A DNA stretch of 61,594 bases, counting the filler, from Pirum gemmata (taxonomy: Eukaryota): the NCBI GenBank assembly GCA_002812295.1. It is 13 parts of 13 records of this genome, joined end to end, with 100 filler letters (N's around TTAATTAATTAA, not from the genome) between each part and the next. Parts side by side here need not be neighbours in the genome. Positions count along the whole stretch, not along the records: positions 18,818 to 23,409 come from PDIN01001015.1; positions 23,510 to 28,089 come from PDIN01001016.1; 11 more parts are not named here. The stretch is one strand, 5' to 3'. Below, in pieces: positions 22,469-27,931 of the stretch; position 1 is the first letter of the stretch, and the number at the start of each line of letters is the position of its first letter. The notes under the pieces are model-generated. The model was not told the origin of the DNA. It did no database searches and saw only the letters and a program-made list of their open reading frames with translations. The position numbers and the translations under genes are program-made.

Positions 22469-24513
22469 CTGTAATAATTAATAAGAATAAGAATAAATTA
22501 ACGTTTAAAAACTTTTTAATTATATGATAATAACATTAGCAAATAAAAATAAAAATAGTGATAAACTTAGGGTGAAGAGTTTGGTATCATACTATTGCAA
22601 GTATGTCTGTGATCATGAAATAGCATTTGTGTTAATGCTAAACACACTATTGTTAAAAGTACTAATACTCTAATAATATACCAATGAACAGCAGCAACAA
22701 CAACAATACTATTATTATTATTAAATAGCAAGAGGTTAAAAACGGGATAGTACTGAATGATAGAATACACGTAAATAAAGTAATGGTGACGCTAATTGAA
22801 ATGATAAGGTTAACGATAATATTAGCCATGTGTATAGCAAGGTATTATTAATCAAAGGTAAATTACCCAGGGCAATAAATGAATTTAACAGCTATAATAG
22901 TAGTAACAGTAAAGAAAATAGCGATGGTAAAGTGATACTAATGGCTAATGAAAAAAAGAACAACGGAATTGATATGATATCGATAATCGCAATCCAGGAG
23001 AAAGAAGGTGATGGGCAGTAGAAGAAGTGAGAGAATGGCAATGATAATGGTAACGACAAGGAGTACGACAGAGGACGATGGTGGAGGACGATGGCGGAGG
23101 ACGATAGTAAGCATGATGAGGATGTAAGCTGCGATATTGATAATAATGACCATTGCAATGATAATGGCAATGATAGTGACAATGATCATAACGATTAAGA
23201 AACTGATGATGGCAATGACGATGACGATGACGATGATGATAATGATGATGGCGATAATCACGAACAACAATAAGAGTAGTGTCGAGGTACGGGGAAGAGG
23301 AAGAGGAAGAGGAAGAGGAAGAGGAAGAGGATGAGGATGAGGATGAGGATGAGGATGAGGATGAGGATGAGGAAAGGATGAGGATGAGGATGAGGATGAG
23401 GATGAGGATNNNNNNNNNNNNNNNNNNNNNNNNNNNNNNNNNNNNNNNNNNNNTTAATTAATTAANNNNNNNNNNNNNNNNNNNNNNNNNNNNNNNNNNN
23501 NNNNNNNNNTATTATTATTATTATTATTTAAAGATATGATACATTTAAAAAAATATCAAAAAATTATTAATAAAATTATTAAAAAATTATTAATAAATGA
23601 GATAATATTTATGGTAACTTTATTTGCAAAGATCAAAAAAAATAATAATAAATAAATAAATAAAAATATCTATAAAAATAAAAATCACTTGAAAATCCTA
23701 AAAATCTGCTATAAAAATCTGCTATAAAAATCTGCTATAAAAATCTGCAAACTATCTCGATATCGATAAAATTTATATAGATAATATCAAGGACTTTTCT
23801 TTTTTGAACTGTCCTTGATAATATTTATGATAACTTTATTTGCAAAAATCAAAAAAAAATAAAAATATGTAGACTATGTAGTCTAAAAATAAAAATCAAC
23901 TTGAAAATAATTTGAAAATAGTTTGAAAATCCTAGAAACAAAAAATTATTGCTACACTATCTATACGGAAAGTCGTGATAGGTTCGAGCGTTGGATATCG
24001 GTAGCTATCATAGCTAGCTAGCTAGTATCGATATCTATGATACTACAATATATCGATATCATATCAATAATATTATCGATATGATAATAATATTACTATA
24101 GAATAATATTATATAATATTATCATATTATGATAATAATATGCAAGGACTTTTTTTTGAAGTCCTTGTAACAATATGATAACATGATTATGATATCATAA
24201 TAAAATAGCTTAGTACTAGCTAGACTATTTCTGGGATCTTTTATGAGATAGACCAAGGACTTCAAAAAAAGAACCTTTTTTTTATAAAAAGCTCTGATAA
24301 AAATAAATCTGAAAAAAAAATAAAAAACTCTCATGAAAAAAAAAAATCTAAAAAAAAAATCAAAAAAAAAATCAAAAAAAAAAATCAAATTTTTTTTTTC
24401 ATAAATAAAAAATATAAACAATAAAAATACAATGTCGAGTATACATAGTAGTATTTTGAAAAAATCCAGTTGCTGTAAAATTAAATTTTTCTTCCTTTTT
24501 TTTTTTCAAGTCA

Positions 24514-25065
24514 TTATCTAAAATAACCATATTTTCTTTTTATTTTTATATATATCTCATCACTAACCGTTTCTTTCGATTTTTTCGTAACCCTTTGTTT
24601 TGATTTCAATTTTTTCGGAACCCATTGTTTTGATTTCAATTTTTTCGGATTAATTTCATAACCATTTTTTAATTTTGAAGAAACTGTCATGTATTCTTTT
24701 GGAGAAAGTTTTTTCTTTCTTTTTTCCGAAATACATTTTCCTTCATGATATACTTTATCGTTGGCTTTACAAGTTTCTTCGGTATGCAAACATATACCAT
24801 TATTCTTATCTAATTTATCTCTGTCACACCATTTTTTTGATGAATTTGTTTTATCACAACCACCCGATTTCGAACAGGATGTATTATATTTTTCGTAGTG
24901 TTTCCATTTAAAAATTCCTTTTCGATTAGGAACAGAAATATATTTAATTTCATTGTTATGACCTTTTTTTACTTGATATGGACATTTTTCCGGTTCGTAA
25001 GCTGGAGTTTTTCTTCTTTTATTTACTTTACGTTTGTTGTCAATTATATCTGAATTATCACACAT
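24514..25065 (-). CDS. Lys-rich 183-aa protein with giant-virus-type R-K-[ST]-P..C..KG..Y.S.P...G..KW motif and a Cys-rich module
   Basis: RRKTPAYEPEKCPYQVKKGHNNEIKYISVPNRKGIFKW; several further Cys; PKKLKSKQ repeated twice. Confidence 0.75.
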   Translation of the reverse strand: MCDNSDIIDNKRKVNKRRKTPAYEPEKCPYQVKKGHNNEIKYISVPNRKGIFKWKHYEKYNTSCSKSGGCDKTNSSKKWCDRDKLDKNNGICLHTEETCKANDKVYHEGKCISEKRKKKLSPKEYMTVSSKLKNGYEINPKKLKSKQWVPKKLKSKQRVTKKSKETVSDEIYIKIKRKYGYFR

Positions 25066-25153
25066 TTATGTTAAAAAAAAAAAATTAATGTATAAAAACA
25101 AAAAAAAAAATGACGGTAGAAATTGAATTAAAAAAAAAACAAGTTTAAAAAAA

Positions 25154-26337: not shown

Positions 26338-26468
26338 TTAATTTCGGTTTCACTACTTTCACTACTTCTTTAAAATTTAGTACAGATTTCGATTTCTTCA
26401 TTTATTTAATCCAACACAATAACCGATTATATCAAAACGACGATTGTCGTGTAAAATTAATTAATAAA

Positions 26469-27692
26469 ATGATAAAGAAAATTATTGAATTAGTTTTTAA
26501 ACTTAACCTTGCCATTAATCTTAATGATATTGTTATTGACCAAACCCGAAATATTTTGAAAATAAAAGATCATTTATTTGAAATTGAAACTTTTTTATCA
26601 AAAGTTCCCGATCTAAAGAAAAACGGTAATTTGGTATATTTAATTAATAAATTCAAGGTGATGTTAAAAACGCCCTTACCCTTAAAAGACGAATGTAATG
26701 TCGGTGACAATTGTACATATGTTTATAGTTTCTTAAATTTTTTAACCGAAATTCATAAAGAGTTTTTAACTACATTATTTTTTCATTATTTCATGAAAAC
26801 GGAATACGATACTCTTTACACATCCTTCATGTGGTATTATTCTTTCCCGACTAATTCAAATTATTTGAATATTTTTTTAAATGATTACTCTAAGGTACAA
26901 CATAATTTTGTTGATTTTTCGAAAAAAAATGATATTCACGAACTACTTGATAAATATTCAATAGGTGAAATAGATAAAACTGCAGAGTTATTACGGTTGT
27001 ATGAGAATGATATTAAAGCAAATCCAAATAAAAAGGATTATTACTTCTTAAAAGTTAATTATTTATTATCAAAATTCAAAAATGAAAACGCAAATTTCCA
27101 GGATTATCAAAATAAAGTATTACACCCGTATTGTAATGATTCAGCAAAACAAGCATTTACTAATGATGAAGAATTTTTGAAATCTGACAAAAACACAGAA
27201 GGAGCTAATGATGATGATGATGTTAAAGTTGATACTGATGTTAAAGATACTGATGTTAAAGTTGATACTGATGATACTGATGTTAAAGATACTGATGTTA
27301 AAGTTGATACTGATGATACTGAGGTTAAAGTTGATACTGATGTTACTGGTGTTAAAGTTGATAATGAAGAACATTTGGCATCTGAAAAAGAAGGAGCTAA
27401 TGATGATGCAGATAAAAAGAAAAAGAAAAATGAAAATGAAAATAAAAAACCTATAGATGTTACTGAATATAAAATAGATAAACCAATTGAAATAAAAAGT
27501 TTATCTTCTTTGCGATACTTTTTATACAAATACGAAAAAATATTTAAAACGAATATAGAAAAAATAGCTTCGGAAAATGGAAAGGAAAATGAAATTGAAA
27601 ATGAAATTTTTGAAGAAATAAAATTATATTTAATAATTACAATGGTCAATGCAGTTAGTGTTATTCGACTAAAATATGAAAAGTTAACATAA
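26469..27692 (+). CDS. Hypothetical 407-aa protein with an acidic DVKVDT/DVKDT tandem repeat insert
   Basis: Long intronless ORF; minisatellite at ~27215-27362; no family recognised. Confidence 0.8.
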   Translation: MIKKIIELVFKLNLAINLNDIVIDQTRNILKIKDHLFEIETFLSKVPDLKKNGNLVYLINKFKVMLKTPLPLKDECNVGDNCTYVYSFLNFLTEIHKEFLTTLFFHYFMKTEYDTLYTSFMWYYSFPTNSNYLNIFLNDYSKVQHNFVDFSKKNDIHELLDKYSIGEIDKTAELLRLYENDIKANPNKKDYYFLKVNYLLSKFKNENANFQDYQNKVLHPYCNDSAKQAFTNDEEFLKSDKNTEGANDDDDVKVDTDVKDTDVKVDTDDTDVKDTDVKVDTDDTEVKVDTDVTGVKVDNEEHLASEKEGANDDADKKKKKNENENKKPIDVTEYKIDKPIEIKSLSSLRYFLYKYEKIFKTNIEKIASENGKENEIENEIFEEIKLYLIITMVNAVSVIRLKYEKLT

Positions 27693-27931
27693 ACAAAACT
27701 CACGAAAGGCTTGAAATTGTACTACAACATCGGCAATATCATCTTTTTTATCGTTTTGTGAAAGTAATAAAAATTCATTTTCTTGACCAAATTCCGAAAA
27801 ATAAGAAAAAGCTCGGTCAACAGCCCATTTTTTGCGATAATATTTCGACATTCCTTCCGGAGCATCTAATAGTTGCGTTTTATGATAAGACGGGAATTCT
27901 AATATATATTTCTTATTTTCTAATCCTTTTT
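27684..27931 (-). CDS. C-terminal half of an NCLDV RuvC-like (poxvirus A22-family) Holliday junction resolvase
   Basis: Hand translation: KGLENKKYILEFPSYHKTQLLDAPEGMSKYYRKKWAVDRAFSYFSEFGQENEFLLLSQNDKKDDIADVVVQFQAFREFCLC*. EFPxYHKTQ, RKKW and KKDDxAD..QxQAF match irido/marseillevirus-type resolvases as I recall them. Confidence 0.75.

What the first reader, a model, noticed from the sequence alone, without database searches (positions are those of the whole stretch)
24284..27931. Candidate endogenous giant-virus (NCLDV) insertion in a unicellular eukaryote genome
Seen: ~3.6 kb that is almost all coding, with 88- and 131-bp spacers and a 9-bp convergent overlap, and no MITEs or CTAG tracts. The other contigs are gene-sparse and repeat-rich. 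A hidden minus-strand frame carries EFPSYHKTQ / RKKW / KKDDIAD..QFQAF. Known: RuvC-like A22 resolvases are near-core Nucleocytoviricota genes, and giant-virus endogenisation is documented in algae and in the ichthyosporean Amoebidium. Inferred: the motif spacing looks irido/marseillevirus-like (Pimascovirales), which could point to an undescribed virus lineage for this host. Host-type repeats on both flanks argue for integration rather than a co-sequenced virus.
Basis: partly seen in the sequence, partly recalled or inferred. Interest (0 to 1): 0.9.

Follow-up and report, generated by a model that had tools for sequence, protein, structure and literature searches.

The report
Giant-virus fragment in an ichthyosporean genome
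A 3.5 kb gene-dense block in the draft genome of a single-celled relative of animals carries two pieces related to giant-virus genes, and is likely a decaying piece of an integrated virus, probably from or near the uncultured family PM_01, whose hosts are barely known.

Summary
The block is real. ORFs cover 94% of 24514-27950, and CpG o/e is 1.4 against 0.6 in host exons. Two genes are viral by test. ORF D (27684 to about 27930, minus) is the C-terminal part only of a Pox_A22/RuvC-type resolvase (165 hits, best E 1e-13). All 22 of its 34 GVMAG carriers that are listed in the 2021 taxonomy are Pimascovirales PM_01. ORF A carries a short motif found in giant-virus contigs (E 4e-10). B and C are orphans, and B is split across two frames. 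ORF C matches EukProt record Pgem_evm3s127, pointing to the ichthyosporean Pirum gemmata (abbreviation recalled). Depth (151-347) lies within the range of host-repeat contigs (145-518), and a high-copy host repeat flanks the left side. Neither junction is bridged by a listed contig. Best reading: a decayed endogenous giant-virus fragment (0.68). The kind is known: Amoebidium inserts, and irido/marseille-cluster markers in Sphaeroforma. New here: this host, reported as negative in a 2024 screen, and a possible PM_01-ichthyosporean link resting on about 80 residues.

The parts
23510..24282 (.). Left flank: host repeat DNA, with a MITE-like element with CAAGGACTT ends (inverted arms 24144-24167 and 24254-24277)
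   Evidence: Summed contig depth up to 16,192 at 24122-24274. 31 nt identical to contig 14073-18717. The 9-mer occurs 6 times against 0.45 expected. Inverted arms.
24299..24389 (.). Poly-A ladder; the left junction zone
   Evidence: Tandem repeat. Skipped by the read tool, so not bridged; the adjoining 768-nt contig runs 71 letters past 24433.
24514..25065 (-). ORF A, 183 aa, basic and Cys-rich; aa 16-62 carry a short giant-virus motif of unknown function; short C-terminal repeats
   Evidence: Profile of 26 viral-contig motifs scores 35.7 bits, E 3.6e-10, the only hit among 1017 window frames; best of 5000 shuffles 12.7 bits. None confirmed among 24 candidates in prokaryote genomes.
25110..25180 (+). 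Duplicated start of ORF B1 between poly-A runs; contig depth changes from 151 to 347 here
   Evidence: Sequence; contigs break at 25100-25129.
25154..25396 (+). ORF B1, 80 aa, orphan; likely the 5' part of a frame-broken gene
   Evidence: no significant family hit.
25357..26337 (+). Frame B2, open for 326 codons (first ATG at 25564), orphan
   Evidence: 69 stop-free codons before the ATG, P about 0.002. No convincing homolog (a sub-cut-off NCBIfam match, E 0.0015).
26469..27692 (+). ORF C, 407 aa, intronless as read, with an acidic tandem repeat (27230-27367); orphan
   Evidence: Only database match is EukProt Pgem_evm3s127, the same sequence with three in-frame, stop-free segments (24, 174 and 69 nt) removed. 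No viral homolog.
27684..27950 (-). ORF D: C-terminal part of a Pox_A22/RuvC-type Holliday-junction resolvase; keeps DDxxD, lacks the N-terminal DxG and EQQ motifs
   Evidence: Homology is demonstrable from 27920 down; upstream adds under 2 bits.
27932..27953 (-). Possible branch point and 3' splice site in front of D; alternatively chance within the truncation zone
   Evidence: Sequence. 58 of 3083 YAG sites in the window have such an upstream CTAAC.
27952..28089 (.). Right flank: TA and GTT microsatellite to the contig end
   Evidence: Tandem repeats. No depth shown here, probably masked; the adjoining 741-nt contig has 82 letters beyond 27951.

Best explanation
The block carries a truncated giant-virus resolvase gene and a second giant-virus motif, and is likely a decaying fragment of a Nucleocytoviricota genome, probably from PM_01 or a sister lineage of Pimascovirales, integrated into the nuclear genome of an ichthyosporean. 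Inferred mechanism: during infection a piece of viral DNA was joined into repeat-rich host DNA by break repair, with no integrase, terminal repeat or target duplication seen. It has since been eroded. The resolvase has lost its N-terminal half, including two of the four acidic motif residues of the family, so as it stands it would be inactive. Gene B appears frame-broken and its start is duplicated. The block keeps its foreign composition, so it is likely not very old. It most likely does nothing for the host; its value is as a record of infection. Shown: viral homology of A and D, density, composition, truncation. Inferred: integration, viral origin of B and C, family, age.
For: D: 165 hits, best E 9.9e-14, 46% identity. 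Pox_A22 in 13 of 20 aligned members; the profile's best solved relative is the canarypox resolvase 5e6f. Of 34 distinct GVMAGs are in the Aylward 2021 table and all 22 are PM_01; 12 are absent from it. With query-only patterns, 4 of 4 listed were PM_01. A: motif E 3.6e-10. The two markers sit at opposite ends of one dense block with CpG o/e 1.40 and GC 26%, against 0.60 and 36% in six host coding stretches. The left flank is a host repeat. Depth 151/347/320 against 145-518 (median 329) for 19 host-repeat contig values. The run's contigs stop 71 and 82 letters beyond the shown block, where the low-complexity flanks lie; a free virus would be expected to run on into the ~350 nt of missing resolvase (inference). 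Host genes have spliceosomal introns, and the SNX3 exon scores 51 bits with SNX12 against 29 with yeast GRD19.
Against: No listed contig bridges either junction, and run X1 may be the source of the window, so it is not independent. No hallmark gene (capsid, PolB, A32, VLTF3) is in the block, and the assembly could not be screened. B and C, two thirds of the block, have no homolog anywhere searched. The tree does not fix the family: D has a long branch (1.0), the smallest clade with PM_01 labels has support 0.74, deeper nodes fall to 0.14, and no labelled irido-, marseille- or pithovirus outgroup was available (20 more hits carried no useful name). The ORF A motif is not PM_01-specific: 4 of 6 looked-up carriers are Imitervirales and 2 are unlisted. 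The depth proxy is biased to well-supported contigs. A 2024 ViralRecall screen reported no reliable hit in P. gemmata.
Confidence: 0.68

Rival explanations
1. Integrated, but D is not truncated: it has gained a host-type spliceosomal intron, its 5' exon lies on another contig, and it may be an expressed, domesticated resolvase.
For: A branch-point-like hexamer lies about 17 nt before a TTTTAG that ends at 27932. Demonstrable homology starts downstream of that AG. The C-terminal part has no stop and keeps the family's invariant residues. Host introns in this window are often microsatellite-filled.
Against: The chance of such a motif is 1.9% per YAG, with several YAGs in the zone. The host 3' splice sites I read do not show CTAAC. 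The residues upstream of the AG also align loosely with the family. The other ORFs read as intronless.
Confidence: 0.15
2. DNA of a free or persistent virus in the culture, mis-joined to host repeats through low-complexity sequence.
For: Both junctions run through simple repeats and neither is bridged. Composition differs from host exons. Depth changes twofold inside the block.
Against: It needs two independent mis-joins. Depth is host-like. The contigs end at the flanks rather than running on. B is in two frames, with no difference shown in the covering contig.
Confidence: 0.1
3. Only A and D are virus-derived; B and C are host orphans or cargo of another mobile element that carried the viral pieces.
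For: B and C have no viral homolog. C is annotated as a host gene model. GT-AG pairs that could join B1 to B2 exist.
Against: B2 and C share the CpG excess and low GC of A and D (CpG o/e 1.64 and 1.08), with tight spacing and a 9-bp overlap with D. All three predicted introns in C are multiples of three and stop-free, which suggests a gene-predictor artefact. No transposase or terminal repeat was seen.
Confidence: 0.07

Closest known systems
Irido/Marseille-cluster NCLDV islands in Sphaeroforma arctica and S. sirkka (Gallot-Lavallee and Blanc 2017, PMC5294986; passages and sections 3.2-3.3 read, figures not seen)
   Same: Ichthyosporean host, small viral island amid host DNA, Pimascovirales-side affinity.
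   Different: Those carry core markers; this block has a partial resolvase and orphans, in another genus. Whether they are PM_01 or share a donor lineage was not tested.
Amoebidium appalachense giant endogenous viral elements (Sarre et al. 2024, PMC11244446; passages, one results section and part of the table file read)
   Same: Ichthyosporean host; gene-dense, intron-poor, incomplete inserts.
   Different: Those are pandoravirales/Mamonoviridae-like, up to 200 kb and hypermethylated, in a host that keeps the ancestral DNMT set. This one is 3.5 kb and Pimascovirales-like, in a species that paper found negative and does not list among those keeping that set.
Pimascovirales family PM_01 (Aylward et al. 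2021, PMC8575486; passages and 60 of 64 PM_01 table rows read)
   Same: All 22 classified carriers of the resolvase relatives; AT-rich genomes are common; two PM_01 genomes also carry the ORF A motif.
   Different: Identity is under about 55%, the branch is long, there is no shared gene order, and no marker gene is available to place it.
Pox_A22 / GVOGm0189 Holliday-junction resolvases
   Same: C-terminal DDxxD motif and RKKW helix.
   Different: The N-terminal DxG and EQQ motifs are absent from the contig.

Membership tests
Pox_A22/RuvC-type NCLDV resolvase | Sequence homology to the family | tested here: met
   D alone has no Pfam hit; 13 of 20 aligned members hit Pox_A22.
Pox_A22/RuvC-type NCLDV resolvase | C-terminal acidic motif DDxxD | tested here: met
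   D70, D71 and D74 invariant in alignment A1.
Pox_A22/RuvC-type NCLDV resolvase | N-terminal DxG and central EQQ acidic motifs (whole active site) | tested here: not met
   Absent from the window; DxG is present in 187 of 204 homologs. D is a fragment, not a whole enzyme.
Endogenous giant-virus element | Two or more genes with giant-virus relatives, clustered | tested here: met
   A and D; B and C unassigned.
Endogenous giant-virus element | Gene-dense, intron-poor, compositionally distinct from host genes | tested here: met
Endogenous giant-virus element | Physical joins to host DNA | tested here: inconclusive
   Same assembly contig as a host repeat, but the junction zones were skipped as repeats.
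Endogenous giant-virus element | Depth equal to host single-copy DNA | tested here: inconclusive
   151-347 against a proxy of 145-518 from host-repeat contigs; no single-copy host gene was measured.
Endogenous giant-virus element | Hallmark genes (capsid, PolB, A32, VLTF3) in the element or assembly | not testable with these tools
   None among the block's ORFs; no genome held.
Endogenous giant-virus element | Silencing or methylation | not testable with these tools
   No RNA holder listed.
Pimascovirales PM_01 | Placement by the seven-marker phylogeny | not testable with these tools
   No marker gene in the block.
Pimascovirales PM_01 | Nearest classified relatives are PM_01 | tested here: met
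   22 of 22 listed, 12 of 34 unlisted.
Pimascovirales PM_01 | Supported nesting inside PM_01 in a gene tree | tested here: inconclusive
   Support 0.74 and lower, 83 columns for D, no labelled outgroup.
Fungal Cce1/Ydc2 or phage RuvC | Best profile match | tested here: not met
   Ydc2 is weak (6 of 20 members, best E 0.008; 1kcf E 0.2). D has no PHROG hit. The 3 prokaryote-genome hits have virus-like neighbours.

The most novel reading that the evidence does not exclude
A PM_01-lineage giant virus infects or infected ichthyosporeans and left DNA in the genome of a cultured species that lacks the ancestral DNA-methyltransferase set. This would be the first genomic link between the largest uncultured Pimascovirales family and an opisthokont. 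It would place viruses of the iridoviruses' order in animals' unicellular relatives. A bolder version is that the resolvase has gained a host intron and is expressed.
Probability: 0.4. Interest if true: 0.72.

Novelty: new member of a known kind. Interest (0 to 1): 0.5.

Why it matters
PM_01 has 64 genomes in the 2021 framework, all from metagenomes. Its host range was still called unknown in 2026 (PMC13691094). Direct links are few: Opalozoa cells, claimed as the first host assignment (bioRxiv 10.64898/2026.10.11.758280), and expression in Hyalosphenia cells (PMC12644861). A fragment in a cultured ichthyosporean names a candidate bait host for isolating such a virus. It also bears on the idea that 5mC enables giant-virus endogenisation. 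A small, eroded insert in a host without that DNMT set fits the idea that such hosts take up viral DNA but do not keep large inserts, and it shows that a genome-wide screen can miss fragments in a fragmented assembly. The class of event is well known, so surprise is moderate.

Tried and rejected
Pfam, NCBIfam and PHROGs gave no hit above cut-off for A-D. A word search with D among longer proteins found nothing among 38 candidates; ORF A found only itself. Viral-contig scans with A, B2 and C found no relative, nor did the ESM Atlas for B2 and C. Neighbourhoods of 172 resolvase loci (1.84 Mb) held no B or C homolog (best E 0.03, in the acidic repeat). Single-sequence folds were too poor to search (pLDDT 35 and 43), so no fold search was run. 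None of 30 resolvase hits looked up had an informative name. No RNA holder listed. Two other runs showed only repeat matches. I first read the contig's end at 27951 as a chimera sign, then rejected it: masked zones start about 2-4 bases before the tandem repeats, and the TA repeat starts at 27956. A cellular origin of the resolvase was rejected: the three prokaryote-genome hits nest among viral sequences and have virus-like neighbours. The scan's earlier findings gave nothing. One host stretch was read in the wrong frame, so only its GC and CpG values are used.
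Full report
Observation. The window is a series of ~4.6 kb contigs joined by N spacers, and the finding is contig 23510-28089. Five open frames cover 94% of 24514-27950: A (minus, 183 aa), B1 (80 aa), B2 (326 open codons), C (407 aa) and D (minus, 88 residues read to 27950). ATG ORFs of 80 aa or more cover 79% of the core, against at most 19% in 500 shuffles. The other 12 pieces of the window have 0-30% by a similar filter. 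Coding DNA of the block has GC 26% and CpG o/e 1.40; six host coding stretches have 36% and 0.60.

ORF D. HMMER over 1.84 billion proteins gave 165 hits at E 0.001 or better, the best at 9.9e-14 and 46% identity. Nearly all match the C-terminal part of ~170-260 aa proteins. In an alignment of D with 19 relatives, 13 of 20 rows hit Pox_A22, and the profile's best solved match is the canarypox resolvase (E 9e-5). D keeps DDxxD but lacks the N-terminal DxG and EQQ motifs, which are not elsewhere in the window. The profile score is 96 bits by 27920 and gains under 2 bits upstream, so the break lies between 27920 and about 27951.

Viral lineage. Scans of viral contigs returned 12 loci and the best 80 of 126, naming 34 distinct GVMAGs. 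Of these, 22 are in the table of Aylward et al. 2021 (PMC8575486; passages and table rows read), all as Pimascovirales PM_01; the other 12 were searched by name and are absent. A tree of 205 sequences (identical sequences and hits outside 150-340 aa dropped) puts D on a branch of 1.0 among unnamed contig proteins. The first clade with PM_01 labels has support 0.74 and the next 0.14, with no labelled outgroup. So Pimascovirales is likely, and PM_01 itself is plausible but unproven. A metagenome scan confirmed 355 of 451 candidates; none of the best 80 exceeded 49% identity. A scan of prokaryote genomes with a full-length relative confirmed 3 of 51 candidates, all on MAG contigs with virus-like neighbours.

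ORF A. A weak look-alike in locus L042 seeded a family search that did not use the window's sequence. A profile of 26 distinct motifs hits A at 35.7 bits (E 3.6e-10) and nothing else among 1017 window frames; the best of 5000 shuffles scored 12.7. The seed was chosen for its likeness to A, which is a mild circularity. The motif occurs in PM_01 and in Imitervirales (4 of 6 looked up), and was not confirmed in prokaryote genomes (0 of 24). It supports a viral origin, not a family.

B and C. No convincing homolog was found in any search. B1 and B2 overlap in different frames; B2 is open for 69 codons before its first ATG (P about 0.002), which suggests one frame-broken gene, though an intron cannot be excluded. 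C's only match is EukProt Pgem_evm3s127, the same sequence minus three in-frame, stop-free segments of 24, 174 and 69 nt; these are probably predictor artefacts.

Host. I recall Pgem as the abbreviation for Pirum gemmata, an ichthyosporean. Independently, a sorting-nexin exon on another contig scores 51 bits with SNX12 and 29 with yeast GRD19.

Integration. One run holds the block (it may be the window's source). Its contigs cover 24433-25129 (depth 151), 25100-27259 (347) and 27293-27951 (320), with no differences. Nineteen depth values of contigs that touch host repeats span 145-518, median 329; this is a biased proxy. The left flank is a high-copy repeat (depth to 16,192; 31 nt shared with another contig). 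Both junctions fall in zones that the tool skipped or probably skipped as repeats, so neither is bridged. The flanking contigs have only 71 and 82 more letters, which fits endings inside the low-complexity flanks rather than a continuing viral genome; this is inference. A direct junction test and a single-copy depth control remain open. The depth step at 25100 coincides with a duplicated B1 start and is unexplained; a second copy, heterozygosity or AT dropout are all possible.

Mechanism and rivals. Most likely (0.68) viral DNA was joined into repeat-rich host DNA during infection and has since decayed. A branch-point-like hexamer and AG at 27932-27953 allow a rival (0.15) in which D has a host intron and a 5' exon elsewhere; the motif occurs at 58 of 3083 YAG sites. 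A mis-joined free virus (0.10) and a mixed origin of B and C (0.07) remain.

Comparison with print. Gallot-Lavallee and Blanc 2017 (PMC5294986; passages and two sections) list irido/marseille-cluster markers in two Sphaeroforma species and describe small islands in S. arctica. Sarre et al. 2024 (PMC11244446; passages, one section, part of the table file) describe pandoravirales-like inserts in Amoebidium and report no reliable ViralRecall hit in P. gemmata. The result columns of their table S5 were blank in the text I could see. PM_01 hosts: (passages only; the preprint's supplements are closed). PMC12344493, PMC13524828, PMC11286789, PMC9546926 and PMC11840718 were read as passages only and added no report of this element. 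Seven searches found no paper on a PM_01-like insert in a holozoan; subscription journals are largely outside the library.

Verdict. This is a real and probably integrated giant-virus remnant, a new member of a known kind. Its interest (0.5) comes from the possible host link for PM_01, which rests on one short gene fragment.

Noticed in passing
window 7318-8433 (-): Intronless 371-codon frame with an N-terminal hydrophobic stretch, three ~110-aa repeats and a hydrophobic tail; no Pfam hit above cut-off. Looks like a secreted or surface protein.
   Followed up: partly
window 34510-35466 (-): 318-codon multi-pass membrane frame with a weak 7tm_3 match (E 0.03).
   Followed up: partly
window 47012-47167 (-): First exon of a sorting nexin 3/12 with a GTAAGT donor; best match SNX12, far weaker to yeast GRD19.
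   Followed up: yes
window 60914-61000, 61185-61230, 43287-43450: Telomere-like TTAGGG/TTTAGGG tracts at internal positions, apparently inside introns.
   Followed up: no
window 58090-58425 (+): Short frame that resembles a decayed retroelement ORF1 (recalled resemblance; no Pfam hit).
   Followed up: no
L129:2953-3675, L130:2983-3693, L131:658-1404: Three prokaryote MAG contigs carry the viral resolvase with virus-like neighbours; likely mis-binned giant-virus contigs.
   Followed up: partly
window 24880-25020 (-); L093-L128: A ~45-aa motif shared by PM_01 and Imitervirales contigs, in some carriers beside basic repeats, with no Pfam model hit; function unknown.
   Followed up: partly
window 26469-27692 (+): The public gene model removes three in-frame, stop-free segments from one continuous ORF; a likely viral ORF is sitting in a eukaryote proteome set as a host gene.
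   Followed up: yes
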